From assembly GCA_045643265.1 (NCBI GenBank), contig JAZUKK010000026.1:9250-73249 (forward strand): a DNA stretch of 64,000 nt, given 5' to 3'. The notes under the pieces were generated by a model. The model did no database searches. It saw only the letters and a program-made list of their open reading frames with translations, and was not told the DNA's origin. The stretch is from Elusimicrobiaceae bacterium. Its GTDB lineage: Bacteria > Elusimicrobiota > Elusimicrobia > Elusimicrobiales > Elusimicrobiaceae. The position numbers and the translations under genes were made by a program. This document shows, one piece after another, positions 13,759 through 63,657 of this stretch (position 1 is the stretch's first letter; each line of letters starts with the position of its first letter).

Positions 13759-14661
13759 TTAGGGAATTAAATAGATATTCTCTCTTGTCCAAGACTCTAT
13801 CGGACTTCCGCCCATTCCTTTACAAACCTGATTGGTAATTGTATTGTCCTTCGCGGCACGGCAATAATATTTACCTTGTGAATTTCCCCTAAAAAAATAA
13901 TTTAACTGCATACTACCATTTGGAACAGGTAACACCGCCGTAATCCATTTGTTGGAAACTTCTAAGACATAATGAGTTCTATTGGGTAATATGAGTTTGT
14001 CATTTTCGTTCATATATGTTGAATACCGCGCGCCCGGCCATTCTATCGGCAAGACGGTAAAATCGGTGGGGTAAGCACCCGTTTCCAAGTAAACGGCATT
14101 GACGGCCGTTTCAAGGGTCTTGATATTAACCAACACTTCGCTGATCCGGCTACGTACAACCGCTTTTTGATACTGCGGTAACGCCACCGCCGCCAGTATG
14201 CCAATGATTAAAACGACGACTAGTAATTCAATAAGTGTAAAACCGCTGTTATCAAAAAAGCGGTGAGATTCCAAATCAAGTTTGCAATGACTATTATATT
14301 TTTTGCTATCATCCCGAACGCCTAAAGTGCCGTCACCCTGAACTTGATTCAGGGTCTCGCCGTTCTCTTTTCCCCTGCCGTCATGCTGAACTTGTTTCAG
14401 CATCTCGTCGTTGTCTTTCCTGTTGTCATCCCCGAGTGTTTCTATCGGGGATCTCCTCCTTATAGTTGTTCCCAAGCGGTGGAGATTCCCGATTACAAAT
14501 TTCGGGAATGACCTTATTTTATTTATGCTGTCATCCCGTACGCCCAAAGTGTTGTCATCCCGGACTTGATCCGGGATCGCGTTGTTCACTACAATAAGGT
14601 GAGACTCTGAATCAAGTTCAGAGTGACGGCAAGAACAACTGCCTAATATTTTATTTTCCAT
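13759..14661 (-). CDS. Type IV prepilin (PilE-like) with a 140-aa REP-derived leader
   Basis: G|FTLIELLVVVLIIGILAAVALPQY at G140|F141 (F codon at 14241). C-terminal Cys pair (YYC...VCK). AAGGAG lies 9 nt before the ATG at 14661. Confidence 0.85.
   Translation of the reverse strand: MENKILGSCSCRHSELDSESHLIVVNNAIPDQVRDDNTLGVRDDSINKIRSFPKFVIGNLHRLGTTIRRRSPIETLGDDNRKDNDEMLKQVQHDGRGKENGETLNQVQGDGTLGVRDDSKKYNSHCKLDLESHRFFDNSGFTLIELLVVVLIIGILAAVALPQYQKAVVRSRISEVLVNIKTLETAVNAVYLETGAYPTDFTVLPIEWPGARYSTYMNENDKLILPNRTHYVLEVSNKWITAVLPVPNGSMQLNYFFRGNSQGKYYCRAAKDNTITNQVCKGMGGSPIESWTRENIYLIP
14266..14628. repeat. Cluster of 9 GTCA-tagged REP-like hairpins inside the pilin leader
   Basis: Units at 14266-14291, about 14308-14329, 14331-14357, 14379-14405, 14424-14454, 14483-14512, about 14529-14551, 14553-14578 and 14602-14628. 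Confidence 0.9.
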
Positions 14662-14812
14662 ATTCTTTCGCTCCTTTTTAATAAAATTCCCATTTATTAA
14701 AAATTAGCAAAAAAAAAAACAAAGTCAAGTATTATTTTTATTTCTCAAAATATACTCCTTTTGAAACACAATTTTGTAGAATATAAAAAATTACTTACTC
14801 AAGGAGAAAACA

Positions 14813-15607
14813 ATGAAAAACCCTATGTTAAACGAGGCCGCCTTTGAGCGTGCAAAAAGGGAACAATTCGCACCCGGCGCCGAAGAACAAAATGATTTAC
14901 TTGCCCAAGGTTTTTCACCGCGCTACCGCGCCAAAGCCGATAGCCAAGTAATGACCTTGCAAGGCACTATCAATAAAACATTTATCTTGCTTACCTTATG
15001 CGTGGCGGGGGGATATATCGGTTGGACAAAACTGGCGGCGTGGGGCTCAGCGTCGTGGATGATATTAGGTATAGGCGCATTTGTGCTTGGGCTGTGGACA
15101 AGTTTTAAGCCGTCCGTCTCGCCCGTTACCGCCCCGATTTATGCGTTAGCAGAAGGCGGTGCGTTGGGCGCAGTCTCTGCCATATATAACGTGATGTATC
15201 AAGGCATTGTATTAAACGCTGTCTTGATTACCGCGCTTGTGTTTGCGGTGATGTTGTTTATATATAAAACAGGCATTATCAAAGTAACACAAGGGTTTAC
15301 TACGGCGGTTGTTTCTGCCACTGTGGCCATTGCTATTATGTACCTAGGGTCATGGATCTTCTCGCTTTTTGGGGGGAACATTGATTATTTAGTTTCGTCG
15401 TCTAAATTATCTATTGGCATTAGCATAGTCGTGTGCGTGGTAGCCGCGCTTAACCTGATGTTAGATTTCCAATTCATCTGGGTAATGTCCGAGCAGGGCG
15501 ATGCACCGAAATTTATGGAGTGGTACGGCGGATTTGGTTTATTGGTAACCATTGTATGGCTTTACATTGAAATTTTGAAATTGCTTGCCAAATCAAAACG
15601 CCGTTAA
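14813..15607 (+). CDS. Bax inhibitor-1/YccA family membrane protein
   Basis: MTLQGTINKT, PIYALAEG, LNLMLDF and EWYGGFGLLVTIVWLYIEIL motifs. Confidence 0.88.
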   Translation: MKNPMLNEAAFERAKREQFAPGAEEQNDLLAQGFSPRYRAKADSQVMTLQGTINKTFILLTLCVAGGYIGWTKLAAWGSASWMILGIGAFVLGLWTSFKPSVSPVTAPIYALAEGGALGAVSAIYNVMYQGIVLNAVLITALVFAVMLFIYKTGIIKVTQGFTTAVVSATVAIAIMYLGSWIFSLFGGNIDYLVSSSKLSIGISIVVCVVAALNLMLDFQFIWVMSEQGDAPKFMEWYGGFGLLVTIVWLYIEILKLLAKSKRR

Positions 15608-15677
15608 GCCAAATTTTGTAAAATAGAATCGTAACGGTTCTGTAAAGAGCCGCAACTTTACATAAGGAGTCAAACGT

Positions 15678-16871
15678 ATGAATTTTAATAGCATTAAAAA
15701 AATGCAAGATATGGATCTGAAAAATAAAAAAGTCTTGGTGCGCGTAGATTATAACGTGCCGCTTAAAGACGGAAAAGTAGATAATACGAAACGTATTGTC
15801 GCTACCGAAAAAACAATCAAACATTTACTTGAAAATAATTGCCGCGTAGTGCTTATTGCCCACTTGGGCCGCCCGAAAGGCAAAGTCTGCCCGGAATTTA
15901 GTTTGGCCCCCGTTGCCGCCGAAGTAGAAAAATTATTCGGCGTGCCGGTACACTTTGCTAAAGACTGCGTCGGCCCGGAAGCCGATAAAATAGTTGCCGA
16001 AACGAAAAACGGCGAAATTGCCCTTTTGGAAAATTTACGTTTCCACGCCGAAGAAGAAAAAAACGATCCGGAGTTTGCCAAACAACTGGCCAAACATGGT
16101 GAAATTTTTGTGCAAGAAGCGTTCGGCACCGTGCACCGCGCCCACGCCTCTACCAGTGCCGTAGCGCAATTACTCCCCAGCGGGGCGGGGTATCTCGTAC
16201 AAAAAGAAGTAGAATTTTTAGGCAAAGCCCTTGAAAACCCGGCCCGTCCGTTTGCGGCGGTAATCGGCGGGGCGAAAGTGTCCGACAAAATTTTGTTGCT
16301 CAACAACTTATTAGATAAAGTCAACGTGTTGATTATCGGCGGCGGTATGGCTTATACGTTCTTAAAAGCCAAAGGCATAGAAGTTGGCAAATCGCTTTTG
16401 GATGAAACCAAAATTGAAGAAGCCAAACAAGTGATGGATAAAGCCGCGGCCAAGGGCGTTAAAATGTTGATGCCGGTAGATTTCCGCGTAGCAAAAGAAT
16501 TTTCCGAAACAGCAACGGCTACGGAAACGGACGTCATCCCGGCCGACATGGAAGCCATGGATATCGGCCCGAAAACCGAAAAAATGTTTGCAGACGAACT
16601 CTTAAAATGCAAAACGATTTTCTGGAACGGCCCGATGGGCGTGTTTGAATTCCCGAACTTTGCCAAAGGCAGTTTTGCTATTGCCCAAGCCATGATTGCA
16701 GCCACCAAAGCCGGCGCGATTTCCATTATCGGCGGGGGAGACAGCGTCAACGTGCTAAAGAAAGGGAAAATCAACTCCAAAGATTTCTCGCACGTATCCA
16801 CCGGCGGTGGTGCAAGTATGGAGTTCGTGGAAGGGAAGGAACTCCCTGGACTTGTCGCCCTCGCGAAATAA
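15678..16871 (+). CDS. pgk: Phosphoglycerate kinase
   Basis: RVDYNVP, HLGRPKG, LENLRF, GGAKVSDK, WNGPMGVFE, GGGDS and STGGGAS motifs. Confidence 0.98.
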   Translation: MNFNSIKKMQDMDLKNKKVLVRVDYNVPLKDGKVDNTKRIVATEKTIKHLLENNCRVVLIAHLGRPKGKVCPEFSLAPVAAEVEKLFGVPVHFAKDCVGPEADKIVAETKNGEIALLENLRFHAEEEKNDPEFAKQLAKHGEIFVQEAFGTVHRAHASTSAVAQLLPSGAGYLVQKEVEFLGKALENPARPFAAVIGGAKVSDKILLLNNLLDKVNVLIIGGGMAYTFLKAKGIEVGKSLLDETKIEEAKQVMDKAAAKGVKMLMPVDFRVAKEFSETATATETDVIPADMEAMDIGPKTEKMFADELLKCKTIFWNGPMGVFEFPNFAKGSFAIAQAMIAATKAGAISIIGGGDSVNVLKKGKINSKDFSHVSTGGGASMEFVEGKELPGLVALAK

Positions 16872-16878
16872 AAATTTA

Positions 16879-17192
16879 GGTCATGCTGAACTTGTTTCAG
16901 CATCTAAACCGCTTAAACAAACCAGCCCCGCGTCATATAGCGGGGCTGGTTTTATATCTGCCGTTATAAAAAAGTCCGTCATGCCGAAAGATTGTTATCC
17001 GGCATCTTCTTATGGTATGAACAACGAGATCCCGTATCAAGTACGGGATGACAGCCCTTTGGAGTACGGAATGACCAGCAGGGGGAAGTCATAAAATAAT
17101 GTCACCCTGAACTAAAAAAAGACGTCACCATGAACTTGATTTAGGGTCTCACCTTATTGCCGTTGCAAAAAAGGGTGCGGCCCGCAGGGTTT
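16879..17192. repeat. REP-like cluster (about 7 units)
   Basis: Units at 16879-16905, 16977-17007, 17027-17053 (rev), about 17057-17076 (rev), 17100-17112 (partial), 17123-17149, and a loop-module copy at 17177-17191. Confidence 0.85.
16919..16953 (+). terminator. pgk terminator
   Basis: AACCAGCCCCGC-gtcatata-GCGGGGCTGGTTTT. Confidence 0.8.
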
Positions 17193-17214
17193 GCGCCTCA
17201 TAATTCCATTAAAA

Positions 17215-17238
17215 ATGCCCTTGCTAATGCAAGGGCAT
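17215..17238 (-). terminator. Intrinsic terminator
   Basis: ATGCCCTTGC-taat-GCAAGGGCAT preceded by an A-run, downstream of the minus-strand gene. Confidence 0.65.
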
Positions 17239-17258
17239 GTTGAGGTACTTAAAGAGTC

Positions 17259-17837
17259 TTAGTCTGCAATTTCCGGTACACACGCTTTGGTGGCTTCTAA
17301 AACGCGCATAAATACCGTCGGATTTAGGGCGATCGTATGCGCTTGGAATTGAATCTTCGCAGATTGCGTTGACGCCGTTTCCTCGGTAACTTGCGTGGTA
17401 ACTTCCGTAGAAACTTGCGGTGCTTGCATCAAATTAAGCGTAACGCCGGGCTCGGCCCAGTTAGGATGTTTCGCCAAGATCTGTTTCCAACTCTGCAAAA
17501 TAGAAATTGCTTTTTGATCTTGTTGCTCGCACACACACGTATGATACCCGGCTAACACATCCGCTTTGCCTTGCAAACAAGCACTCAAATAAGATAAGTC
17601 TTGCAAAGAATGATTAAGTGCTAAAAAATCAGGTGCATCTTCGGCACTTACTTGAACAATCTGCGGCATAACAGGGAGCGGAGCCGGCGCAGGGGTGCTT
17701 GCTTGCGTCGCGGCCGGCATTTGTACCGGGGCTAATTTAGCAACTTGCACCGACGGTTTTTTCGTCGTAGTGTAATACGCATATCCTACCCCGACAAGCA
17801 CAATCAATACAACTAACATTCCTACTATTTTTTTCAT
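17259..17837 (-). CDS. Hypothetical membrane-anchored exported protein
   Basis: AAGGAG before MKKIVG. N-terminal TM helix, Pro/Ala linker and four Cys residues. Confidence 0.7.
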   Translation of the reverse strand: MKKIVGMLVVLIVLVGVGYAYYTTTKKPSVQVAKLAPVQMPAATQASTPAPAPLPVMPQIVQVSAEDAPDFLALNHSLQDLSYLSACLQGKADVLAGYHTCVCEQQDQKAISILQSWKQILAKHPNWAEPGVTLNLMQAPQVSTEVTTQVTEETASTQSAKIQFQAHTIALNPTVFMRVLEATKACVPEIAD

Positions 17838-17978
17838 AATAACTCCTTGATTTATTTTATACATCTAACTGGTATTTTATAAATTTTTATTATTTGGTCG
17901 CAGAAAACAACAAATGAGAAATTTTTTTCCTAAAAAATTTGTATAATGTAGTATCATCAGGAAAGGAGAAGGCATTTC

Positions 17979-18272
17979 ATGTACGGACTTATTTTGACAT
18001 TGCATTTTATCGTTTGTATATTGTTGATTTTGTTAGTTCTTTTACAAAGCGGCAAAGGATCTGCGGCCGGTATTTTCGGCGCGTCCGGGGCGGACAATTT
18101 GTTTGCCAGCCCGACGGCCTTTAACGCAGTTAATAAATTTACGGCTATTTTAGCGGCGATTCTGATGGCTACGTCTATTGTGTTGACGATTGTGTCCAAC
18201 AAAAAAGCGGCCTCGTCGGTTATGGATAAAGTTACGATTCCGGCTCACGCTCCGGTGAACGCAGGAAAATAG
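17979..18272 (+). CDS. secG: Preprotein translocase subunit SecG
   Basis: LVLLQSGKGS and GIFGASG motifs, two TM helices, and the typical secG-tRNA-Leu arrangement. Confidence 0.93.
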   Translation: MYGLILTLHFIVCILLILLVLLQSGKGSAAGIFGASGADNLFASPTAFNAVNKFTAILAAILMATSIVLTIVSNKKAASSVMDKVTIPAHAPVNAGK

Positions 18273-18364
18273 TAATTTTTCGTCGGCGAGTTGTCATCCG
18301 TATTATTTTTTAGTAGAATAGAAGTAGAGAAGTTCTTTTAATTCCTCGTCGTAAAAGTTTTTTC

Positions 18365-18446
18365 GCGCAGGTGGCGGAATTGGTATACGCGTGCGTTTGA
18401 GGGGCGCATGCCGCAAGGCTTGAGGGTTCGAGTCCCTCTCTGCGCA
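18365..18446 (+). tRNA. tRNA-Leu(GAG)
   Basis: GCGCAGG/TCTGCGC acceptor stem, TGCGT-TT-GAG-GG-GCGCA anticodon arm, long variable arm GCC-GCAA-GGC, GAGGG-TTCGAGT-CCCTC T arm. CCA is not encoded. Confidence 0.95.
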
Positions 18447-18657
18447 TAAATTAAAAACCGAGCATTAGCTCGGTTTTTTTATGTGCAGAAGCGCACCAAC
18501 TGCTTGGTGCGCGTGAGGGGACGAGAAGCCCGCAGCGTTGTACGAGTTTGCGTGCATGTGCTATGCCGTGCCGCAAGGCGAGTACCGCGAGGGCGGGCCC
18601 GGCTGAAACCTCCGTCAGGAAATTTACATAGGGCGAGTCTTTACCCTCTCTGCGCAT
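18434..18657. repeat. tRNA-linked structured element bounded by a 14-bp direct repeat of the tRNA 3' end
   Basis: CCCTCTCTGCGCAT at 18434-18447 and 18644-18657. Variable-arm 11-mer TGCCGCAAGGC recurs at 18569-18579. Several stems lie in between. Confidence 0.65.
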
Positions 18658-18663
18658 GAGAGC

Positions 18664-18701
18664 AAAAAATTCCCCGGAAACAACTTCTTCCGGGGAATTT
18701 T
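18664..18701. terminator. Bidirectional intrinsic terminator
   Basis: AAAAAATTCCCCGGAA-acaacttc-TTCCGGGGAATTTT. Confidence 0.75.
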
Positions 18702-18717
18702 TCAACAAACTGTCAAT

Positions 18718-19968
18718 CTATTCATCTACGCTAGTGTTGCCGGGTACGTGTAAAAACACATCCGCGCCAAGCAACGCAGGCATTTGGGAATCTTGCGGCC
18801 AAGCAAAGCCATGCGAAGAAGTTAATTTACTTTGCAACTCGCTAGGCAGTAAACTTTCCGTACGGGACGGGGCTTGCGGGGAGGAAAGTTGTAACACGTT
18901 CACGGTTTCACCCTGTTGGGCAAGCGGGGCCGTAACCGAGTTAAACCCGTTATACGTTACATACGTACTGGGACCCCACAGTATGATAAGTGCCGTTGGA
19001 TTTTCCTGACGGTATTGGTTGATAACGCGCATCAAATACTTTTGTTGTTCGGATTGTCCCAAAGCAGTCATTTCAAAAGAACTACCCGCACGCGTAAACG
19101 GGTTAGCATACGAGATCGTATTTAAGCCAGAAGTTTTCCCGTGCGACGAGATAGCCGTTCCTACCACCGTAATTTGGAGTTCTCGGGCCTTTCCCAATAC
19201 ATCTTGAGCGGCTACGGGCGACACTCCTTGCGCTTGCAGAGATTGCGTAACTACATTTCCATTAACGCCTCGCACGAACGGCGTAATAAGCACGATAGGC
19301 CGGTGATACATTAAATTATGCGCATAATCCAAAAACGATTTCACCAGATCTACCCCTTGTTGGGAGTAAAAATGGGGTTCCTGCCCAATACCTATGACAC
19401 TTGCCCCGCGGTTAAACAGTTGTTCAACTATCCATTCGTCGGTCTCAAAGCGGTGTAAGAGTTGTGCCGAACGGTCAATTTCGTTGCTGATATTTTCGGC
19501 CTGTTGTTCAAGTGAAAGCCGAAGTTGTTCGTTTGCTTCGGCGCGCGAAATAATGGCATTATTTTCCATAGCCCCCAACGCCTCGCTGGCTTGCAGCAAA
19601 GGGTAGCGGGGAATATAGTTGCGTTCTCCCCAACTTAAAGGAGTTAAAGGAGGGGTTACTTTCACGGCACTAAAACGCTCTATGGACGAGACAGGGCCCC
19701 GGACGCCTAGCCGTGTTAAGTTCTCTTGGCTAGAAAGTGAGCTAACTTCAGAGGCTTTCGTCATCAAATCAAAACTGCCCCTGGATAAACGCGAAATCAG
19801 AGGAGGGCTTAAACGAAGCAAGGACGCTCTAGGCAAGGAGAAAGATGCTGAGGGCACGCCTTTCCCGGCGAGTGCCCGACAAACCCTATTAGCCAACTCC
19901 AACCGGTTTTGGGCCAATACCGGAAGGGTACATAAACACAACATTCCACACGTTAAACATTTTTTCAT
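18718..19968 (-). CDS. Secreted hypothetical protein, possibly a degenerate EreA/ChaN/TIKI-like fold
   Basis: Signal peptide MKKCLTCGML...VLA. Segments SVIGIGQEPH...IVLITPF and PTALIILWGPSTYV. Confidence 0.55.
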   Translation of the reverse strand: MKKCLTCGMLCLCTLPVLAQNRLELANRVCRALAGKGVPSASFSLPRASLLRLSPPLISRLSRGSFDLMTKASEVSSLSSQENLTRLGVRGPVSSIERFSAVKVTPPLTPLSWGERNYIPRYPLLQASEALGAMENNAIISRAEANEQLRLSLEQQAENISNEIDRSAQLLHRFETDEWIVEQLFNRGASVIGIGQEPHFYSQQGVDLVKSFLDYAHNLMYHRPIVLITPFVRGVNGNVVTQSLQAQGVSPVAAQDVLGKARELQITVVGTAISSHGKTSGLNTISYANPFTRAGSSFEMTALGQSEQQKYLMRVINQYRQENPTALIILWGPSTYVTYNGFNSVTAPLAQQGETVNVLQLSSPQAPSRTESLLPSELQSKLTSSHGFAWPQDSQMPALLGADVFLHVPGNTSVDE

Positions 19969-20125
19969 AATTCTTAAAAATAAACCTCCGCTTTGTATAG
20001 TTTACTTTACTATTTCCCTATAAACCAGGGTATTAAGACCTAAAACGCACCTGGGTCTAATCGTCCCTCCAAATTGCCGCAATTAGTCTTTCCTTTCCCG
20101 TCTATAATTAAGTACAATAGAGTAT

Positions 20126-21013
20126 ATGACAAAATTATCGCCCTTGTTGGCCATTTGGCTGTCCTGTTTATGCACCGCCACAAATGTAGTGATTTCCAAA
20201 ATAGCCACTCCGTTTGTTACCTCGGCTTTGTTTTTATTAGTTGCCTGTTTTACGGCGTGTGTAGTATTGTCGGGCACGGTGGGAACGCGCGGTTGGAAAC
20301 GTATTTTATCGGCCGACGTACGCTGGAAAGGACTGGGCATGGGGACGTTCGGTACGGCCTTAACCATGACGGTATTTATGGTGGCCCTCAACTATACCAC
20401 TCCCGTCAACAGTGCTGTTGATAACCAATTTGAAATTATTTACTCGCTCATCTTGTCGGCTTTGATTTTGAAAGAACGCCCGACGCTTAAACAAATCGGC
20501 GGGTCGTTGCTTATTTTGCTGGGAGTTATTTTGATTGTGCTTAAAGGCGGCTACACGCAAGCCAAAGGCGATTTCTTAATTTTAGGCAGTTTGTGGATGT
20601 TTCAAGTCAGCCATATTTTTGCTAAAAAATTACCGGCCGATTTAACCGCCCCGCAAATTGCCGCGGCCCGCGCTTTTTATGCTATGCCGGCGTTGGCGGT
20701 GTTACTGGGCGCGTTGTATTTGATTCAAGGGCCGCTTCTGTTTAACGGAACGGCAATCCTATGGGGAACAATTATCGGCAGCGCGGTCATCAATTACGTA
20801 ATCGGCAACATTTTGTGGTATCACGCCATACGTAATATGGACTTAAGCAAAGCCACCGCTATTATCTTATGTTATCCGGTATTTACATTTATCCTATCGG
20901 TCTTATGCGGGCAAGACACCCTTTCTTTATATAAAATATTCGGTATGACACTTGCGGTAGGCGGAGCGTATCTGGTTACCAACAGTGCCAAAAAACAAGG
21001 AGCTCATGTATGA
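20126..21013 (+). CDS. EamA/DMT family transporter
   Basis: About 10 TM helices with two EamA repeats (ILKERPT, WYHAIRNMDLSKA). Confidence 0.9.
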   Translation: MTKLSPLLAIWLSCLCTATNVVISKIATPFVTSALFLLVACFTACVVLSGTVGTRGWKRILSADVRWKGLGMGTFGTALTMTVFMVALNYTTPVNSAVDNQFEIIYSLILSALILKERPTLKQIGGSLLILLGVILIVLKGGYTQAKGDFLILGSLWMFQVSHIFAKKLPADLTAPQIAAARAFYAMPALAVLLGALYLIQGPLLFNGTAILWGTIIGSAVINYVIGNILWYHAIRNMDLSKATAIILCYPVFTFILSVLCGQDTLSLYKIFGMTLAVGGAYLVTNSAKKQGAHV

Positions 21014-44621: not shown

Positions 44622-44715
44622 TAGTTGTTATTAAAGTGCTAAAAACACACTTTCAAAATACAGAAAGTGTGTTTTTTCTTTGTTTCTATCCGGCCTGACG
44701 GCAAAAACCATACAT

Positions 44716-44765
44716 GCCATCCCGTACACCCAAAGTGTTGTCATCCCGGACTTGATCCGGGATCT
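44716..44765 (+). repeat. REP-like doublet
   Basis: GCCATCCCGTACACCCAAAGTG plus TGTCA-TCCCGG-acttgat-CCGGGA-TCT. Confidence 0.85.
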
Positions 44766-44793
44766 CACCGCTTTCTATAACGGCCCCTTAGAT

Positions 44794-52716: not shown

Positions 52717-53290
52717 GTACGGGTTGACAGCACTTTTGCCTTTGACGTCACCCTGAAACTCTGCGGGCCGCCGATTCAGGATCTCACCTTATTGTATGAA
52801 CGGCGAGATGCTGAAACAAGTTCAGCATGACGGCATTTTGGAGTTACGGGATGACAGCATAAAATAAAGTCATTCACGAAATTTGTAATCGGGAATCTCC
52901 ACCGCTTTAGAACAACTATAAGGAGGAGATCCCCGATAGAAACATTCGGGGATGACGATAGAAGAAGGACAACGGCAAAAAATAATGTCATTCCAAACTT
53001 GATTTGGAATCCCACCTTGTTGTAGAAAACAACGAGATCCCGTATCAAGTACGGGATGACAGCACTTTGGGTGTACGGGATGACAATATAAAATAAAAAG
53101 CCGTCCTGCTGGATAAAAAACAGGGTCATGCTGAACTTGTTTCAGCATCCGTCGTTATAATAACGGCAACAACAGACCCTGAATCAAGTTCAGGGTGACG
53201 GCTAGGGAGCAAACAACGAGATCCCGTATCAAGTACGGGTTGACGGCACTTTTTGCCTTTGTCGTCACCCTGAAACCCTGTGGCCCGCAG
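52717..53290. repeat. Large REP-like cluster (about 13 units) bounded by direct repeats of about 55 bp
   Basis: Hairpins at 52746, 52806, 52869, 52927, 52986, 53035, 53124, 53174, 53219 and others. 52717-52771 is nearly identical to 53233-53288. Confidence 0.9.
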
Positions 53291-53340
53291 GTTATGGGGG
53301 GATGTTCCACTACCGCTGGCAAGTTATATATAATATAAAT

Positions 53341-57291: not shown

Positions 57292-57453
57292 ATTTATTAG
57301 TGGATATAACCGCTAATTAAAATTAGTATAATAAGTGGGTCAGGCGGTTTTTACTGCCTGGCCTATAATTTATTCTGTTTTTTTGGGAATCTGCAAAGAT
57401 TACGGTTTTGCGATGAGCAAAACAGTACACAAACCAAAAAACAGTCGTTATAA

Positions 57454-57572
57454 AAGCATAAGATAAACGGCCTAATTACCCGATTATTTTATGCTTAATG
57501 TCTGCCGTTTGCAAAAACGGCAGACTACGGCTGTTGTTTTATGCGTTTGTGTACTCATAAAGCAACGGCCGT
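57454..57572 (+). other. Three tandem hairpins in the leader of the methylase operon
   Basis: Stems 57454-57466/57484-57496, 57500-57510/57515-57525 and 57527-57543/57556-57572. TATAAT boxes at 57327 and 57364. Confidence 0.5.
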
Positions 57573-57615
57573 TTTTTATGGCTATATTCCCGAAAACAAA
57601 AAGGGAGTAGGGAAT

Positions 57616-58659
57616 ATGGCAAATCAACGCCTCACCCAAGCACGCAAAAATAAAAGTGATGAGTTTTATACGCAACTGATAGATATTGAAAACGAGTTAA
57701 AACATTACAAAGAACATTTCAAGGGAAAAACCGTTTTTTGTAATTGCGACGACCCCTACGAAAGTAACTTCTTTAAGTATTTTGCCGTCAATTTTAACCA
57801 TTTAGGGCTTAAAAAACTGATTGCCACTTGTTATAACGGCTCGCCTGTCAGCGGTACCCATTTCCCTCTTTTTGAAGAACATAAAGAAATTACAAAAACT
57901 GCCCACAAGATTGTCATTACCGAAGTAAAAGACGAAAACAACGACGGAGCAATTGATTTAAGTGATGTGGAACACTTAATTAAAAACAAGAAAAATGTAC
58001 TCACCCAATTAAAAGGGGACGGCGATTTTAGGAGTAAGGAATGTAGCGAATTATTAAAACAAGCCGATATTGTAGTAACTAATCCGCCCTTTAGTTTGTT
58101 TCGGGAATATGTGGCCCAACTGGTGGAATATAATAAAAAGTTTCTCATCATAGGAAATCAAAATGCTATTACCTACAAGGAAATTTTTAAGTTAATTAGA
58201 AATAATCAACTGTGGTTGGGAGCAAGTATTCATAATGGCGATAGAGAATTTATGGTACCTAAAGGATATGATATTTCTAAAAATTGCCGTTATGATGAAA
58301 AAGGAAATAAATATATTCGTGTTAGAGGACCGCGTTGGTTCACAAATTTAGATTATAGAGAACGACACGAAGATTTAGTCTTATACAAAAAATACACACC
58401 GGAAGAATACCCTACCTACGATAATTACGACGCTATCAATGTAAATAAAACCGCTGATATCCCCTACGATTACGACGGCGTTATGGGCGTACCCATCACT
58501 TTTTTAGATAAATACAACCCCAATCAATTTGAAATTTTAGACCTAAATCCGCATTTCTTTACCTTGCAAGAACAAGGACTTCCAAAAATCAAGCAATTAA
58601 CACTTAAAAAAGTGGGGGAAAAGGATCCTTATGCTCGTATTTTAATCAAACGGAGATAA
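57616..58659 (+). CDS. Adenine-specific DNA methyltransferase, EcoRI family
   Basis: DEFYT, VFCNCDDP, GDGDFRS, TNPPFSLFREY and GVMGVPITF motifs. Confidence 0.92.
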   Translation: MANQRLTQARKNKSDEFYTQLIDIENELKHYKEHFKGKTVFCNCDDPYESNFFKYFAVNFNHLGLKKLIATCYNGSPVSGTHFPLFEEHKEITKTAHKIVITEVKDENNDGAIDLSDVEHLIKNKKNVLTQLKGDGDFRSKECSELLKQADIVVTNPPFSLFREYVAQLVEYNKKFLIIGNQNAITYKEIFKLIRNNQLWLGASIHNGDREFMVPKGYDISKNCRYDEKGNKYIRVRGPRWFTNLDYRERHEDLVLYKKYTPEEYPTYDNYDAINVNKTADIPYDYDGVMGVPITFLDKYNPNQFEILDLNPHFFTLQEQGLPKIKQLTLKKVGEKDPYARILIKRR

Positions 58660-58660
58660 T

Positions 58661-59755
58661 ATGCAAATAAAATTACACGAAATCACCATCAAGGACTTAT
58701 TCAACGGATATCGCAATAACGACGAAGAAGGTGTTTTTGGCTATGGCGGGAAATTAAACATCCGCCCGCCCTATCAGCGCGAGTTTATCTACAAGGAACA
58801 ACAACGCGACGAAGTTATCAAAACCGTACAGAAGAATTTTCCGCTTAACATTATGTATTGGTGCGAAAACGACGACGGTACCTTTGAATTGCTAGACGGC
58901 CAGCAACGCACTTTAAGCATTTGCGAATACTGCGCGGGCAATTTTTCCCTAGATTCTAAGTATTTCCACAGTTTAACGCAAGATAAACAAAACGAAATCT
59001 TACAATATAAACTAATGGTCTATATCTGCAAGGGCGAGCAATCGGAAAAATTAGATTGGTTCAAAACTATCAATATCGCCGGGGAAGAATTGACCGACCA
59101 GGAACTGCGCAACGCCATTTATACGGGCCCTTGGCTTAGCGACGCTAAAAAATTATTCAGTAAAACAGGTTGCTTGGCCTATAAGATTGGGAGCAATTAT
59201 TTAAGCGGAGTGGCTATCCGTCAGGACTATTTGGAAACGGCTTTAAGGTGGCTCTGCAACCAAAAGGGCTATGACACGATTGAAGATTACATGAGCAAAA
59301 ATCAATTTGCACCCAACGCTAACGAATTGCGGTTATACTTCCAAAATGTTATATCGTGGGTGGAAACCGTTTTCCCCAAATACCGCAAAGAAATGAAAGG
59401 AATTGAGTGGGGAATTTTATACAACCAATACAAAGACACCCCACAAGACAGTAAAAAGTTAGAAAAAGAAATTTCTACCTTGATGCAAGACGACGACGTA
59501 ACCAACAAAAAGGGTATTTATGCCTACTTGCTAACGCATGACGAAAAACACCTAAATATCCGTGCCTTTAGCCCCAGCATGAAACGGCAAGCATACGAAC
59601 GGCAAAAAGGCATTTGCGCCAAGTGCCATAAGCATTTTGAGTTGGAAGAAATGGAGGCCGACCACATTACTCCTTGGTGTGAGGGGGGCAAGACAAACGC
59701 CGAAAATTGCCAAATGCTCTGCAAGCACGACAACCGCACCAAGTCCGATAAATAA
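58661..59755 (+). CDS. DUF262 (ParB-like, GmrSD/SspE N-domain)-HNH endonuclease fusion
   Basis: RPPYQREF, LLDGQQR, FKTINIAG and ELRNA, then CAKC...EADHITPW..GGKT...NCQMLC..DN. Confidence 0.9.
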   Translation: MQIKLHEITIKDLFNGYRNNDEEGVFGYGGKLNIRPPYQREFIYKEQQRDEVIKTVQKNFPLNIMYWCENDDGTFELLDGQQRTLSICEYCAGNFSLDSKYFHSLTQDKQNEILQYKLMVYICKGEQSEKLDWFKTINIAGEELTDQELRNAIYTGPWLSDAKKLFSKTGCLAYKIGSNYLSGVAIRQDYLETALRWLCNQKGYDTIEDYMSKNQFAPNANELRLYFQNVISWVETVFPKYRKEMKGIEWGILYNQYKDTPQDSKKLEKEISTLMQDDDVTNKKGIYAYLLTHDEKHLNIRAFSPSMKRQAYERQKGICAKCHKHFELEEMEADHITPWCEGGKTNAENCQMLCKHDNRTKSDK

Positions 59756-59783
59756 GGGCTCTAATTCAAAACGCCCTAAATGC

Positions 59784-59896
59784 TGTCATCCCGGACGCAT
59801 TAAATGCTGTCCTCCCCGAGGATTTCTATCGGGGATCTCCTCCTTATAGTTATTCCAAAGCGGTGGGGATTCCCGATTACAACTTTCGGGAATGAC
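59784..59896. repeat. REP-like cluster containing the 89-bp dyad
   Basis: Partial unit at 59784 and a dyad at 59808-59896 matching 14424-14512. Confidence 0.88.
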
Positions 59897-59931
59897 TTTA
59901 TATTATGCCGTTATTACAAATCGGTATGTTT

Positions 59932-60942
59932 TTAGATCTTTTCCAACAGTTTTTGCACCAGACGGGGAACCGCGTACGAAGAAAGAGCCGCTTTTTTTAT
60001 GCGTAAAAACTCCGTCGGCACTTTAGCCGAGGGGGGAAGAACTACCTTATATAACCGTGCCCACAAAATACGGTGCGACAACACATGTTTGACAGGCTCA
60101 CCCACCGTCGTCAATTTAGTACGACCGCACCAAGTCGGTTTTTTGGTAAGCACGCCCCCGCGGGTAGTTTCCACCAGGGGTAATTCATACAAATTTTGCC
60201 AAATATCACCCGCCCCGCGCTTGTGCAGCCACACATACGTCCCTTGCTCTACATATATATAGTGGAAAAACCGCTCGGACACTTTTGGCTTTTGCGCCTT
60301 AACAGGCAATTTCTCTATACAGTTCGTTTTGCGCGCGTGGCACTTTTTAGCAAATGGACACGCCTTACATTGGGGAACTTGCGGGGTGCAGACTAGCGCG
60401 CCAAAGTCCATAATGGCCTGATTAAAATCTCCGGGAGATTTTTTATCCAACAATTTTTGCGCCAAGGCGGTAAACTGTTTTTTCCCGTCGGTAGAGTCAA
60501 TGGGCGTTTCCACGCCAAACACGCGCGACAATACCCGATAGACATTTCCGTCCACCACCGCATAAGGCATATTGTATGCCATGGAACAAATCGCCGCCGC
60601 GGTATAGTCGCCCACGCCCTTTAAGGCGCGCACACCGTCATAAGTAGTGGGGAATTTTCCGTTCATACTCTTGGCGGCCGCATGCAAATTACGCGCGCGC
60701 GAATAATAGCCGAGCCCTTGCCACAGTTTTAAGACGGTATCTTCGTCCGCCGAGGCCAGCGCGGCAGGCGTAGGAAATTTTGCGGCAAATTTCTCGTAAT
60801 ACGAAAGCCCTTGCGAAATGCGCGTCTGCTGAAAAATAATTTCCGACAACCAAATCAAATACGGATTGTGCGTATCACGAAACGGCAAGCTGCGTTTATT
60901 TTTTTGATACCACGCGAGCAAAGTGGGGGAAAAATCTTTCAT
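59932..60942 (-). CDS. mutY: A/G-specific adenine glycosylase
   Basis: WLSEIIFQQT, WQGLGYYSRARNL, GVGDYTA, VDGNV and the Cx6Cx2Cx5C Fe-S motif. Confidence 0.96.
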   Translation of the reverse strand: MKDFSPTLLAWYQKNKRSLPFRDTHNPYLIWLSEIIFQQTRISQGLSYYEKFAAKFPTPAALASADEDTVLKLWQGLGYYSRARNLHAAAKSMNGKFPTTYDGVRALKGVGDYTAAAICSMAYNMPYAVVDGNVYRVLSRVFGVETPIDSTDGKKQFTALAQKLLDKKSPGDFNQAIMDFGALVCTPQVPQCKACPFAKKCHARKTNCIEKLPVKAQKPKVSERFFHYIYVEQGTYVWLHKRGAGDIWQNLYELPLVETTRGGVLTKKPTWCGRTKLTTVGEPVKHVLSHRILWARLYKVVLPPSAKVPTEFLRIKKAALSSYAVPRLVQKLLEKI

Positions 60943-60963
60943 AAACTTATTTTACTACTTTTC

Positions 60964-61108
60964 TACGGGATGACGGCGGGGGAAAGGGCACGACAAAAAA
61001 TAAAACAATGTCATTCCAAACTTGATTTGGAATCTCACCTTGTTGGAGAAAACAACGAGATCCCGGATCAAGTCCGGGATGACAACACTTTGGGGTTACG
61101 GGATGACG
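60964..61108. repeat. REP-like cluster (4 units)
   Basis: Units at 60964-60974 (half), 61009-61035, 61058-61084 (rev) and 61086-61108 (rev). Confidence 0.88.
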
Positions 61109-61424
61109 GCGGGGATTATCTTGTTTGCGCGTTTTTCTTCGCCGCAAAATCGCACCCGATTTTGCAAAATCCGTTTTTATGCTCACGCGGGGGGATAAAA
61201 CCCTTTTTTTTAATAAAATGCGGCAAAAAAATTATCCCCGTTTTTTGCCACACCCGCTAAACCAAAAATCTAAGCCAGATTATTATATTAGATTTTTTAC
61301 CCCATATATCACGCTTATTTTTGACAAACCAAACTCAATTTTTACACGCCTTATTTCTTTTTTCTCGTCTGGAAAATGGCTTTATCCCCAAGTTTTGGCA
61401 TAAAAAGACATAAAACAACATATA

Positions 61425-61487
61425 TTGACATATGACACAAAAAATTTTATTATATGTCTATTCCACGTGGATAACTCCTGTGGAAAA
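61425..61487 (+). promoter_or_regulatory. Sigma70 promoter followed by two DnaA-box-like 9-mers
   Basis: TTGACA 61425-61430, 17 nt, TATTAT 61448-61453. Minus strand has TTATCCACG (61466-61474) and TTTTCCACA (61479-61487). Confidence 0.55.
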
Positions 61488-61516
61488 CTTTTTAAGCGGC
61501 ATCCGGAACTAAACCT

Positions 61517-62185
61517 ATGAACGAAACAGACAAGACCCAAAAAATCAGGTTCAAATTTGCCAATGGCGAGGAATTTGAGGCCGAAGGATCATTAGATTTT
61601 GTAGAAACACAACGCGACTATTTCTTATCTTTAATCAAAAAGAAACCGTTGTCCCGCCCCACCCAAACAGGGGGAATAAATTCATCCGCAACAGCCGGAT
61701 CTGCCGCGTTGCAAGAGGACGCGTCCGTATCCGGCACGCTTACCCCGCGCCTATACGCTACGGCCCCCGGCTCCTACGCGTATGAGCCAGCAACCCCAGC
61801 CAAACCGGCCCCCACAACAGACGTGCCATCTAATGACGGGCCTTTTTTGGGTACGCATTTATGGGAACAACTGCTTGTACAAGAGGGGGATAACCTATAT
61901 TTACGACGCAAATTTCACCTATCCGCCGACGACGCCGCACTGATTTTGTTGGCGGGGGGAAAAGAATTGCTACGCAAGGACGGTTGCAGCGCGCTGTGGC
62001 TTTCCCGTGCTCTAGCCAAATCCGGCTTTGAAACGGGGCGTTTGGACCGTCTGCTAGCCCCGGCCCAAAAACTCAATTTCTTACTCTGCCAAGGGGTCAA
62101 ACGCAGTCGTCTGTATATGCTCACCCCGGCCGGGCTGGCGCACGCCTTTGTACTAGCCGAGAAAAAGGCCCAAAACACGCTATAA
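61517..62185 (+). CDS. Hypothetical protein with a probable C-terminal winged helix
   Basis: N-terminal IRFKFANGEEFEAEG module, a Pro/Thr linker, and a C-terminal RLYMLTPAG wing-like motif. Confidence 0.6.
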   Translation: MNETDKTQKIRFKFANGEEFEAEGSLDFVETQRDYFLSLIKKKPLSRPTQTGGINSSATAGSAALQEDASVSGTLTPRLYATAPGSYAYEPATPAKPAPTTDVPSNDGPFLGTHLWEQLLVQEGDNLYLRRKFHLSADDAALILLAGGKELLRKDGCSALWLSRALAKSGFETGRLDRLLAPAQKLNFLLCQGVKRSRLYMLTPAGLAHAFVLAEKKAQNTL

Positions 62186-62374
62186 GTTAAAAAGTGGGGG
62201 GAGGCCCCCTTGTCGGCCACCCCATGGCCAAGACTCTTTGGATAAAGGAAACCCCCGCCAGCCCCCGCGGTTTATCCTAGCCGGTTACCCCCTTTCTTTT
62301 GTGCCCGTTTTAACCCCTTTTTGAACTCATTTTACACCCCCTCATCCAAACGAGGTGGAAAACATTTTTTGCGC

Positions 62375-62401
62375 AAAATCTAATTTGACAAATTAGATTT
62401 T
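62375..62401. promoter_or_regulatory. Perfect 27-bp operator-like palindrome
   Basis: AAAATCTAATTTG-a-CAAATTAGATTTT, containing TTGACA. Confidence 0.45.
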
Positions 62402-62495
62402 TAACATTTTCACAAATTTTAATGATGCAAGACCATCCGGTTTACAAAACTCATATTTTTAGGGTAAAAGAGGGGTTATTTGTCAGGTTTATTTT

Positions 62496-62523
62496 ACTAA
62501 CGATAATTTTTATTATGTTAATA
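62496..62523. other. dif-like XerC/D site
   Basis: ACTAACGATAA-TTTTTA-TTATGTTAATA. The right arm matches 9/11 of the E. coli XerD arm TTATGTTAAAT, and the ATAA-N6-TTAT core is intact. Confidence 0.45.
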
Positions 62524-63264
62524 AAAGCAGGGAAAAACGGGCGTAAACTATAACTATATTCATTATTTAATTTATTTGTTTTATACATAATATTTAAAAC
62601 TTTTTCATATAAAACTTATACGATTTATAGAATTTATTTTTTAGCAGTATTCGCACCAAAATAAAGGCATCAAAAAGGCATTTTATTTTTATTTTCAAAC
62701 TTCAAATCAGAGCCGATTTTTGTAAAATAAAATTTTATAAAAAATGCAAATTTAATTCAAATTTTGCATTTTTTTACAAAACGCGCTAAAACGCCCCAGA
62801 ACGATTTGGAGGTACCTAGGGATATGGGGAAAATAAAATGGGCGATTTTAGAAATACTTAAAATTTAAGGTTTTTTATCATTTTTACCATCCCCCCTTGT
62901 TTTTGGGGGCGGAACAAAGGTAACTTCCCTTATTTTTGGTTAGTTAGGACTTCCGGACAAAAGGTCTCTTACGCACTTTGGGCCTTTTAATAGGTTACGG
63001 GATATGAGGTTTTGAGCGCGCGCTGAGCCTTGGCGTTTGCCTTGATTTGGACTCTTGCATTTGGTACGCGGTGATGCGTTGCGTACGCGGGGTTTTACGA
63101 GTTCTTTGTGTGATTTTATTTTTTTGTATGGGGGGTATAAGGCCCCCCAGAGCACGTTTTCGGGCAGTTTTGTGTGCGATTTATAAGGGGGGAAATACAG
63201 GAAAAAGGGGAGGAACCCCCTATTTTTGCAGGTTCTCCCCCCATCATTTACCGCCCCAAAATGC

Positions 63265-63657
63265 TGTCATCCCGTACTTGATACGGGATCTCATCGTTGT
63301 CCCTCGTCCGTTCATCCAATAAGAAGATGCCGGACACCAACCTTCCGGCATGACAACTCTTTTTTAACAGCAGATCCTGAATCAAGTTCAGGATAACGCA
63401 AGAGGGCGGGAATGACATTGTTTTTTGCCGTTGTCCCGGGCGCACTAAATGTTGTCATCCCCGAATGTTTCTATCGGGGATCTCCTCCTTATAACTGTTT
63501 CTAAGCGGTGGGGATTCCCGATTACGACTTTCGGGAATGACATTGTTTTATTTCTCGCCGTTCCTTTTCCCCCCGCCGTCATCCCGTAACCCTGCGGGCC
63601 GCACAAGATAAAACCCTGAATCAAATTCAGGGTAACATTATGTTAGTTTGGAATGAC
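63265..63657. repeat. REP-like cluster (about 8 units) containing the 89-bp dyad
   Basis: Units at 63265-63291, 63325-63355, 63372-63398, dyad 63453-63541, 63577-63602, 63611-63637 and half units. Confidence 0.88.

What the first reader, a model, noticed from the sequence alone, without database searches (positions are those of the whole stretch)
14266..63657. GTCA-tagged REP-like family with covarying stems and a conserved 89-bp dyad
Seen: about 45 units in 8 loci share (C/T)GTCA-stem-loop-stem-TCT. Stems vary with full compensation (TGCTGA/TCAGCA, CCCTGA/TCAGGG, CTCTGA/TCAGAG, TCCCGG/CCGGGA, TCCCGT/ACGGGA, TTCCAA/TTGGAA) around a constant ACTTGAT-like loop. A convergent pair with a fixed spacer recurs at exactly 89 bp four times (14424-14512, 52869-52957 rev, 59808-59896, 63453-63541), and its spacer carries CCTCCTTATA, the complement of a perfect Shine-Dalgarno. 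Known: CGTC/GTAG-tagged REPs and REPIN dyads are linked to HUH Y1 (RAYT/TnpA-REP) transposases acting on ssDNA hairpins. Inference: structure-selected, non-autonomous mobile units whose enzyme lies outside this window.
Basis: partly seen in the sequence, partly recalled or inferred. Interest (0 to 1): 0.7.

Follow-up and report, generated by a model that had tools for sequence, protein, structure and literature searches.

The report
Cross-phylum hairpin repeats invading pilin leaders
A small gut Elusimicrobium-like genome carries about 250 copies of a 25-base DNA hairpin, found in many bacterial phyla, with no matching REP-type transposase, and a third of the copies sit in frame inside the cleaved leader peptides of pilin genes.

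Summary
The window holds 26 model hits plus related units, in 7 clusters. There are 18 exact GTCA-N6-ACTTGWT-N6-TC matches against 0 expected. The whole 1.42 Mb genome has about 248 units in 72 arrays, including 30 dyads that are all exactly 89 nt.

The stems are discrete compensated subfamilies (5 of 8 pairs covary). Neighbouring inverted units never share a stem (0 of 40).

The family is dynamic. A sister species (96% PGK identity) has none and shows empty sites. Copy number in the genus runs from 0 to 151.

The RAYT/HUH reading fails:
- The genome's two Y1 proteins are IS200 transposases and are not flanked by units.
- Y1 does not track the repeat in the genus or across phyla.
- IS91 (Y2) and IS110 enzymes are absent.

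Two findings are new:
- The same hairpin, with the same loop and often identical stems, is multi-copy in Sphingomonadales, Bacteroidota, Treponema, CPR, Chloroflexi and others.
- 84 units lie in frame between the start MENKILG and the G|FTLIE cleavage site of 25 prepilin paralogs, each unit type read in one fixed phase.

Best reading: a NIME/BIME-like mosaic hairpin family spread by recombination, and tolerated, RPE-like, in a leader peptide that is cut off.

The parts
14256..14640 (-). Repeat array lying in frame inside the leader-peptide codons of a type IV prepilin gene. Units: A- 14267-14291, half-unit 14307-14331, A+ 14332-14356, A+ 14380-14404, 89-nt dyad 14424-14512, half-unit 14529-14553, A+ 14554-14578, A- 14603-14627.
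   Evidence: the frame stays open from ATG 14661 to the G|F site at 14244
13759..14661 (-). Prepilin gene (P0001, 300 aa): start MENKILGS, a 140-aa repeat-built leader, the N_methyl motif GFTLIELLVVVLIIGILA at residues 138-161, then a mature part of about 160 aa.
   Evidence: PF07963, 5.4e-8
14671..14699 (-). Conserved 5' cassette TAATAAATGGGAATTTTATTAAAAAGGAG (an inverted repeat plus the SD, 9 nt before the ATG). 21 pilin paralogs share it, with or without an array.
16874..17159 (.). Intergenic array downstream of pgk: A+ 16880-16904, A- 17028-17052, imperfect A+ 17124-17148. Sister species G020 has a short-leader pilin gene at this place.
44715..44775 (+). Half-unit plus one A unit (44740-44764), intergenic.
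52734..53293 (.). Large intergenic array between the TolC-like OEP gene and the DMT_6 gene. It holds 7 A units, one dyad (52869-52957, reverse) and two GTCACCCTGAAAC..GCGGGCC units. It has stops in all six frames. In sister species G020 the same gap is only 83 nt.
59760..59906 (+). Half-units plus a dyad (59808-59896) at the end of a 2.6-kb methylase/HNH island (57295-59943) that G020 lacks.
60965..61150 (.). Block of about 190 nt upstream of mutY: A+ 61010-61034, A- 61059-61083, bounded by direct repeats TACGGGATGACGGCGGGG. Absent in G020. It is 92% identical over 106 nt to 52979-53084.
   Evidence: (D7)
63241..63657 (.). Array: A+ 63266-63290, D- 63327-63354, A- 63374-63397, dyad 63453-63541, one GTCATCCCGTAACCCTGCGGGCC unit, A- 63613-63636.

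Best explanation
What it is. The units are short, strand-asymmetric DNA hairpin modules. The main type has the form GTC-A-N6-A-CTTG(A/T)-T-N6'-T-C. There are also 28-nt relatives with 9-nt loops. They are assembled, in both orientations and with fixed spacings, into mosaic arrays. This resembles the BIMEs of E. coli and the NIMEs of Neisseria.

Shown:
- The hairpin is under selection.
- The stems fall into discrete compensated subfamilies, and inverted neighbours always carry different stems. This lets each unit fold on itself instead of making a long cruciform with its neighbour.
- The arrays are built from recurring composite blocks: the 89-nt dyad, a 106-nt A+/A- block, and 45/48/50/56/60-nt steps.
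- The family has bloomed in this species, while a sister species has none and shows empty sites.
- No Y1 (RAYT), Y2 (IS91) or IS110 enzyme goes with it.
- The same hairpin is multi-copy in many phyla.

Inferred mechanism:
- The family is seeded by horizontal transfer.
- It then spreads and grows by host recombination and replication acting on the arrays: block duplication, gene conversion between arrays, and recombination with incoming DNA. A self-encoded transposase is not involved.
- In the 25 prepilin paralogs the array lies between the start codon and the G|F cleavage site. Only frame-preserving, stop-free, hydrophilic readings survive there, because the leader is translated and then removed by the prepilin peptidase the genome encodes.
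- The leader is therefore a safe harbour, comparable to the in-frame palindromic elements of Rickettsia.
For: Hairpin selection:
- 97% of cells paired, and 5 of 8 pairs compensated.
- In the test that did not select for pairing, 137 of 162 hits are perfectly paired.
- 0 of 40 adjacent inverted A units share a stem, against 18% expected.

Block structure:
- All 30 dyads are 89 nt.
- Neighbour spacings fall in a few modal classes.
- A 106-nt block occurs twice in the window at 92% identity.

Dynamics:
- G020 (PGK 96% identical, 8 contigs) has 0 hits to the model.
- G020 has 83 nt where this genome has a 679-nt gap holding the array.
- The syntenic pilin has a 10-15 aa leader in G020, G005 and G043, against 140 aa here.
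- Copy number runs 0-151 in the genus. The pattern is in 14 of 63 genera of the phylum, with a reversed-pattern control of 0.

No cognate enzyme.

Cross-phylum spread:
- 140 of 158 hits have a perfect 8-bp stem, although the pattern leaves pairing largely free.
- 11-99 copies in 14 of 14 genomes tested, control 0.

Leader reading:
- 84 units lie in 25 leader ORFs.
- Same-strand spacing is a multiple of 3 in 20 of 21 cases inside leaders, against 15 of 33 outside.
- Each unit type is read in one phase: A+ 26/26, A- 25/25, B- 11/11, D+ 10/10.
- Among arrays with at least 2 units, 16 of 19 next to a pilin are open throughout. Nearly all long arrays elsewhere have stops in all six frames.
- Paralogs without an array read MENKILGG|FTLIE from the same promoter/SD cassette.
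- A Peptidase_A24 homologue is present.
Against: - No direct evidence shows how a unit or block gets to a new site. No target-site duplication or defined junction could be read from the two empty/filled comparisons.
- Recombination alone does not easily explain first arrival at sites with no prior homology.
- Recombination also does not explain why the loop ACTTGWT and the GTCA/TC flanks are the same across phyla. That points to some conserved partner, either a protein or a trans-acting element, which I did not find.
- Only Y1, Y2 and IS110 were tested. Other nucleases, or enzymes carried by phages or plasmids, remain possible.
- Translation and cleavage of the long leaders are inferred from sequence statistics only.
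- The comparisons are between species, not strains.
Confidence: 0.5

Rival explanations
1. This is a REPIN/RAYT system. A single-copy HUH Y1 transposase elsewhere in the genome recognises the GTCA tag and the hairpin on single-stranded DNA, and disperses units and dyads.
For: - The 5' tetranucleotide plus hairpin resembles GTAG-tagged REPs.
- As single-stranded DNA, the 89-nt dyad folds into one long imperfect hairpin, like a REPIN (-17.6 kcal/mol, z = -4.25).
- The genome has two Y1_Tnp hits.
Against: - Both Y1 proteins score as IS200 (143 and 110 bits) and fail the RAYT model (33 and 28 bits against a cut-off of 80).
- Neither is flanked by units.
- Y1_Tnp is absent from G015 (96 units) and G005 (35), and present in G002 (0 units).
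- It is absent from 9 of 14 hairpin-rich genomes of other phyla, including one with 99 copies.
- 0 of 26 Y1 loci carry a unit.
Confidence: 0.07
2. The hairpin is the substrate of a rolling-circle HUH Rep or relaxase supplied in trans by a passing ssDNA phage or plasmid. The loop ACTTG|AT would be its nick site.
For: - From my own knowledge, not tested here: CTTG|ATA is the nick motif of pC194/pUB110-type Rep proteins and of phiX174 gpA, and IS91 inserts next to CTTG/GTTC.
- A trans-acting, broad-host enzyme would explain an identical loop and flanks in many phyla.
- The hairpin also occurs on IMG/VR viral contigs.
Against: - IS91-type Y2_Tnp is absent from 19 of 20 hairpin-bearing or related genomes.
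- Half-units break after GTCA-N6-AC, not after CTTG.
- No shared neighbour gene was found across 120 loci from many phyla.
Confidence: 0.1
3. The arrays are functional, as proposed for Neisseria NIMEs. They would be recombination handles that promote exchange and variation of adjacent surface-protein genes (here 59 pilin paralogs). Alternatively they would be mRNA hairpins and an internal SD-like AAGGAGG that tune translation of the prepilins.
For: - 31 of 59 pilin genes have units within 700 nt upstream.
- The arrays sit between two conserved sequences: the promoter/SD cassette and the invariant N-terminal helix codons. Those could frame recombination.
- In leaders the dyad always has the orientation that puts AAGGAGG in the mRNA (C+ 11/12, B- 11/11).
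- Other species of the genus build long leaders from other hairpin units.
- NIME arrays are linked to variable surface-protein genes, and pilS cassettes lie within them (PMC1797815).
Against: - More than half of the arrays are nowhere near a pilin gene.
- Close relatives manage with 10-15 aa leaders.
- Module content differs freely between paralogs, as expected of tolerated rather than required sequence.
- No recombinase of the kind proposed for NIMEs is present.
Confidence: 0.2
4. The units are DNA uptake sequences recognised by a minor type IV pilin.
For: - The genome is rich in pilins.
- GCCGTCA..CTGAA loosely resembles the Neisseria DUS GCCGTCTGAA (a recollection, not a test).
Against: - The same sequence in many phyla is the opposite of a self-recognition tag.
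- The units are clustered in arrays, not dispersed.
- Sister species have none.
Confidence: 0.03

Closest known systems
Neisserial intergenic mosaic elements (NIME: dRS3 hairpins ATTCCC-N8-GGGAAT flanking RS units)
   Same: - Arrays of short inverted-repeat hairpins alternate with AT-richer spacers.
- Many sequence subfamilies.
- Arrays differ in length between relatives.
- Arrays lie next to surface-protein and pilin loci (PMC1797815).
- The 28-nt unit here, ATTCCCGA-N9-TCGGGAAT, even has the dRS3 ends ATTCCC..GGGAAT.
   Different: - The 2007 paper says NIMEs have not been seen outside Neisseria.
- The inner spacing here is 13 nt, not 8.
- The main unit here has a conserved asymmetric loop, ACTTGWT.
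- The IS110-type recombinase that targets dRS3 is absent from this genus.
- Here the arrays are also read as protein.
REP / BIME / REPIN-RAYT systems of Enterobacteria and Pseudomonas
   Same: - A 5' tetranucleotide tag plus an imperfect palindrome.
- Units in alternating orientation with distinct stem types, like the Y and Z REPs of BIMEs.
- An inverted doublet with a fixed spacer that can fold as one long hairpin, like a REPIN (PMC3116915, PMC3337134).
   Different: - There is no RAYT, and no Y1 gene is flanked by units. REPIN-RAYT systems are described as vertically inherited with one RAYT per genome (PMC5581495).
- This hairpin is shared by many phyla, and its loop rather than its stem is the conserved part.
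Rickettsia palindromic elements (RPE)
   Same: Short palindromic repeats are inserted in frame in protein-coding genes and kept as extra peptide segments (my own knowledge: Ogata et al. 2000; mentioned in the MITE review PMC10969869).
   Different: - Here whole arrays (up to 8 units, 186 aa) pile up at one specific place, the part of a class III signal peptide that is cleaved off.
- This happens in 25 paralogs of one gene family.
- Each unit type is read in a single fixed phase.

Membership tests
REPIN/RAYT (REP-associated tyrosine transposase system) | A RAYT gene (HUH Y1; NCBIfam NF047646) is present in the genome. | tested here: not met
   There are two Y1_Tnp genes. Both reach the IS200 model (143.5 and 110.2 bits, cut-off 55). 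On the RAYT model they score 32.8 and 28.5 bits against a cut-off of 80.
REPIN/RAYT (REP-associated tyrosine transposase system) | The RAYT gene is flanked by its own REPs or REPINs. | tested here: not met
   No unit lies within 1.5 kb of either Y1 gene of this genome, or of 24 Y1 genes in five hairpin-rich genomes of other phyla.
REPIN/RAYT (REP-associated tyrosine transposase system) | The repeat and the enzyme co-occur across related genomes. | tested here: not met
   In the genus: G015 has 96 units and 0 Y1, G005 has 35 and 0, G002 has 0 units and 2 Y1. Across phyla, 9 of 14 genomes with 11-99 copies lack Y1_Tnp.
REPIN/RAYT (REP-associated tyrosine transposase system) | Short palindromes with a conserved 5' tag, over-represented in extragenic space, partly as inverted doublets with a fixed spacer. 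| tested here: met
   18 matches against 0 expected in the window. 248 units in the genome. 30 dyads of exactly 89 nt. The dyad folds as a long hairpin.
NIME (Neisseria) | Arrays of 20-bp dRS3 inverted repeats, ATTCCC-N8-GGGAAT, flanking RS units. | tested here: inconclusive
   The array architecture is alike, and one unit type has the ends ATTCCC..GGGAAT. But the spacing is N13, and the main unit is different.
NIME (Neisseria) | A dRS3-specific IS110/Piv-type recombinase, as carried by the Nf prophages. | tested here: not met
   Transposase_20 (PF02371) is absent from all six genomes of the genus that were searched.
IS91/ISCR-type rolling-circle elements | A Y2 HUH transposase (PF04986). | tested here: not met
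   Absent from this genome and from 19 of 20 genomes searched.
RPE-like in-frame palindromic insertions | The repeat lies inside an ORF and keeps the reading frame, while orthologues or paralogues lack it. | tested here: met
   25 leaders hold 84 units. Spacing is a multiple of 3 in 20 of 21 cases. Paralogs without an array read MENKILGG|F. The syntenic genes of G005, G020 and G043 have 10-15 aa leaders.
RPE-like in-frame palindromic insertions | The inserted segment is actually translated. | not testable with these tools
No proteomic data are available.
Rfam RNA families | A match to a curated covariance model. | tested here: not met
   At gathering threshold only two tRNAs match in the window. 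At E <= 10 on one array only chance-level hits appear.

The most novel reading that the evidence does not exclude
The hairpin GTCA-stem-ACTTGWT-stem-TC is a pan-bacterial repeat superfamily that has not been formally described. It would be kept the same from Proteobacteria to CPR and Elusimicrobiota because it is handled by a conserved host function, or by a broad-host trans-acting element, and not by a cognate transposase. In this genus it has been co-opted as building blocks for exceptionally long, modular prepilin leader peptides. Those leaders would have a role of their own, for example control of pilin translation or export, or recombination between the 59-85 pilin paralogs.
Probability: 0.2. 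Interest if true: 0.85.

Novelty: new variant of a known kind. Interest (0 to 1): 0.62.

Why it matters
Three points make it matter.

- REP-like repeats are usually treated as lineage-specific partners of a RAYT. Here a hairpin with the same loop and flanks, and often the same stems, is multi-copy in many phyla, with no Y1, Y2 or IS110 enzyme to go with it. This reopens the question of what maintains and spreads such elements. It also gives a sharply defined motif for a genome-wide association search for the missing partner.
- The arrays show that a cleaved signal peptide can act as a neutral landing zone for selfish DNA. That produces 40-186 aa class III leaders, far longer than usual, in 25 paralogs. 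It is a natural experiment on what a prepilin peptidase substrate can tolerate.
- On the practical side, these arrays break assemblies, and they make gene callers predict odd long pilin ORFs and spurious peptides.

Tried and rejected
- RAYT, IS91 and IS110 as the cognate enzyme: searched and rejected. One search used a faulty regular expression; one search replaces it.
- Rfam: no family matches.
- Literature by sequence and by translated strings (CCGGACTTGATCCGG, MLKQVQHD and others): no paper found. A search for Elusimicrobia + pilin + repeat found nothing relevant.
- Shared neighbour gene across 240 loci from other genomes and viral contigs: none. The large clusters were spurious high-GC frames and related alphaproteobacterial prophage/GTA regions. 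A small GIY-YIG ORF lies beside the hairpin in 4 loci, but this genome has no homologue.
- Pilin association outside this lineage: not seen. Arrays in other phyla have stops in all frames.
- Covariation within the 89-nt dyad: the copies are too alike to choose between two local hairpins and one long hairpin. In one search the second helix was entered one column off.
- Openness of frames as an intrinsic property of the units: rejected, because long arrays away from pilins have stops in all six frames.
- Target-site duplications at the two empty/filled sites: none could be read.
- tRNA anticodon-arm mimicry and IHF sites were considered by eye and dropped. The ACTTGTT loop variant breaks U33, and there is no TTR in the right place.

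Full report
**1. Is it there?**

Yes. Reading the four places the finding names shows the units and the dyad as described.

- The pattern GTCA-N6-ACTTGWT-N6-TC occurs 18 times in the window, against 0.00 expected from shuffles.
- A covariance model (R1) built from 65 units of the genome finds 26 hits in the window. All lie in seven clusters: 14256-14640, 16874-17159, 44715-44775, 52734-53293, 59760-59906, 60965-61150 and 63241-63657.
- With the 28-nt units that have 9-nt loops, and the truncated half-units (GTCATCCCGNACGCCCAAAGTG), the total is about 40.

The window is C26:9250-73249 of a 1.42 Mb genome with 35 contigs, 47% G+C and 98.8% completeness. Genome-wide I count 248 units in 72 arrays: 173 of type A (loop CTTGA or CTTGT), 26 B, 33 C and 16 D. 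Several contigs end inside an array.

Its nearest named relatives among the fetched loci are Elusimicrobium and Avelusimicrobium MAGs, with about 75% DNA identity to the latter.

**2. Structure selection**

- On the 65-unit alignment, 97.3% of cells pair and 5 of 8 pairs change on both sides. Shuffled and slid controls are far lower.
- Those units had been chosen for pairing, so I repeated the test with anchors outside the stem only. Of 162 sites matching GTCA..CTTGW..TC, 137 are 8/8 paired and 22 are 7/8. With the loop alone as anchor the distribution is bimodal: 146 perfect, and a background peak at 1-2 pairs.
- The variation is not continuous. It consists of six main stem subfamilies.
- Adjacent units on opposite strands never carry the same stem: 0 of 40, against 18% expected. 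I read this as the reason for the stem diversity. Each unit can fold on itself, and long perfect inverted repeats are avoided. This is like the alternating Y and Z REPs of BIMEs.

**3. The dyad**

- Thirty full copies exist in the genome. Every one is exactly 89 nt, at 86-100% identity, and the CCTCCTT in the spacer is conserved.
- As single-stranded DNA the dyad prefers one long imperfect hairpin (-17.6 kcal/mol, z = -4.25). This is the REPIN architecture.
- The copies are too alike to give covariation for or against either fold.

**4. Dynamics**

- The model finds the family only in the window's own genus among 41 relatives, and there patchily: 153, 113, 96, 35, 25, 25, 23 and so on. Eleven of 25 genus members have none.
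- G020 is a sister species with 96% PGK amino-acid identity and only 8 contigs. It has none.
- At the orthologous site between the TolC-like gene and the DMT_6 gene, G020 has 83 nt where this genome has 679 nt holding the array. The flanks can be aligned up to ...TTTTTTATTGCACC and from AAGTTATATATAAT....
- The 190-nt block upstream of mutY is also absent in G020.
- Across the phylum the pattern is in 42 of 151 genomes and 14 of 63 genera. This genome has the highest count (151). The reversed-pattern control is zero everywhere.
- This is the picture of a repeat that blooms and is lost in separate lineages.

**5.

Y1 (RAYT):
- The genome has two Y1_Tnp genes.
- Both are IS200/IS605 transposases by NCBIfam and fail the RAYT model by a wide margin.
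- Their flanks show IS200-type hairpins and no GTCA units.
- Within the genus, Y1_Tnp and the repeat are uncorrelated.

Y2 and IS110:
- Y2_Tnp (IS91) is absent from 19 of 20 genomes searched.
- IS110-type Transposase_20 is absent from all six genus members searched.

On these tests the family is not a member of the REPIN/RAYT kind, although it looks like one.

**6. It is not lineage-specific**

- I scanned one genome per species with GTCAYNCYRNACTTGWTNYRGNRTC. I estimated about 17 chance hits for the whole collection.
- The loci come from Sphingomonadales, Rhizobiales, Burkholderiales, Bacteroidota, Ignavibacteria, Treponema, Patescibacteria, Melainabacteria, Chloroflexi, Desulfobacterota, Nitrospirota, Coxiellaceae, a Nanoarchaeota MAG and others.
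- The pattern leaves most pairing free, yet 140 of 158 hits have a perfect 8-bp stem. The units often come as convergent pairs with different stems, as they do here.
- In 14 of 14 such genomes the motif is multi-copy (11-99 copies), with control 0. The same stems (ATGCTGAA, ACCCTGAA, ATCCTGAA) recur in unrelated phyla.
- Nine of these 14 genomes have no Y1_Tnp. None of their 24 Y1 loci carries the hairpin.
- The motif is also on IMG/VR contigs.
- No neighbouring gene is shared across phyla.
- I found no Rfam family, and no paper holding these sequences or their translations.
- What keeps the loop and flanks constant is unexplained. Two leads rest on my own knowledge and were not tested. First, CUUG/CTTG is an unusually stable tetraloop. 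Second, CTTG|ATA is the nick motif of pC194-type Rep proteins and phiX174 gpA.

**7. One third of the units are read as protein**

- The genome has 59 type IV pilin-like genes.
- Twenty-one share a near-identical promoter/5' cassette and the start MENK(I/M)LG.
- Five of the genes with this start read MENK(I/M)LGG|FTLIELL..., a normal short leader.
- In 25 pilin genes, 84 units lie between the start and the G|F cleavage site. This gives leaders of 22-186 aa.
- The window's example is 13759-14661 on the minus strand, with a 140-aa leader and the N_methyl motif at residues 138-161.

That this is not chance is shown by four results:
- Among arrays with at least 2 units, 16 of 19 next to a pilin are open throughout in the gene's frame. 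Nearly all long arrays elsewhere have stops in all six frames.
- Same-strand spacing is a multiple of 3 in 20 of 21 cases inside leaders, against 15 of 33 outside.
- Every unit type is read in a single phase and orientation class: A+ 26/26, A- 25/25, B- 11/11, C+ 11/12, D+ 10/10. This holds even though a second phase of the A units is also stop-free.
- The syntenic pilin between groEL and the BaxI gene has a 10-15 aa leader in G020, G005 and G043.

Further points:
- A prepilin peptidase homologue is present.
- More distant species of the genus (G012 and G015, with 80-85 pilin genes each) also have long in-frame leaders, built from other hairpin units.
- Proteins like the leader exist only in this genome among 5.8 billion clusters, apart from one weak hit.
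I reached it independently and confirm it.
- In leaders the dyad always has the orientation that puts AAGGAGG in the mRNA, where it encodes I-R-R-R. No start codon follows at a usable distance, so it is not a ribosome-binding site for a downstream start.

**8. Reading**

- The closest known architectures are the NIME arrays of Neisseria and the BIMEs/REPINs of Enterobacteria and Pseudomonas. NIMEs are dRS3 hairpins plus spacers, next to surface-protein and pilS loci, and a 2007 paper says they had not been seen outside Neisseria (PMC1797815). The closest precedent for the in-frame copies is the Rickettsia palindromic element.
- I commit to this: a mosaic hairpin repeat family, seeded horizontally and expanded by host recombination and replication acting on the arrays, with no cognate transposase. 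It is tolerated in prepilin leaders because that segment is cut off.
- The descriptive parts are well supported. The mode of spread is inference.
- The constancy of loop and flanks across phyla is the main fact this reading does not explain.

**9. Limits**

- All comparisons are between species, not strains.
- Many of the genomes are MAGs.
- Only three enzyme families were screened.

Noticed in passing
window 14671-14760 (minus strand) and 20 other places in the genome: Pilin paralogs share a near-identical promoter/5' region: CTTGACTT-T11-GCTAAT, then the inverted repeat TAATAAATGGGAATTTTATTA, then AAGGAG and the ATG. The inverted repeat in the 5' UTR could be an operator or an RNA hairpin common to about 21 pilin genes.
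   Followed up: partly
window 57295-59943: The methylase plus DUF262/HNH two-gene island, with a repeat dyad at its end, is absent from sister species G020. There mutY directly follows the gene that ends at window 57295.
   Followed up: partly
L037:1051-1321, L312:2631-2943, L082:3525-3810, L024:2643-2949: A small GIY-YIG nuclease ORF (about 100 aa) lies 7-355 nt from the hairpin in 4 of 240 loci from other genomes. One is an Elusimicrobium MAG. This genome has no homologue. The ORF could be a selfish gene that targets the hairpin.
   Followed up: partly
G012 and G015 (loci L159-L188): Two other species of the genus have 80-85 pilin-like genes each. Many have 40-135 aa in-frame leaders built from different hairpin units, with peptides such as SFPSVVVGNL, RFPTTTLGND and SRIKTLRDD. 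In G012 many pilin genes start within 450 nt of a contig end, so assemblies break in these arrays.
   Followed up: partly
genome C23:8774-9642: The only Peptidase_A24 (prepilin peptidase) homologue lies directly beside a MENKMLGG pilin gene and a 3-unit array.
   Followed up: no
genome C32:36188 and C10:99550: Orphan leaders: ORFs with an MKNKMLGG.. or MEKEMLGG.. start that run through repeat units and stop without a pilin domain. They are probably decayed pilin 5' ends.
   Followed up: no
window 52745-52776, 53262-53293, 63576-63607: A further unit type, GTCACCCTGAAAC(T/C)CTG(C/T)GG(G/C)CCGC.., has the GTCA tag and the left stem of an A unit but a different, G+C-rich continuation. Its fold and its relation to the A units were not worked out.
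   Followed up: no
L095:1380-1800 and L099:0-420: In an Ignavibacterium MAG and an alphaproteobacterial MAG the same hairpins form regular tandem arrays (periods of 82 nt and 135 nt). All six frames have stops, so the in-frame use appears special to the Elusimicrobium-like genus.
   Followed up: partly
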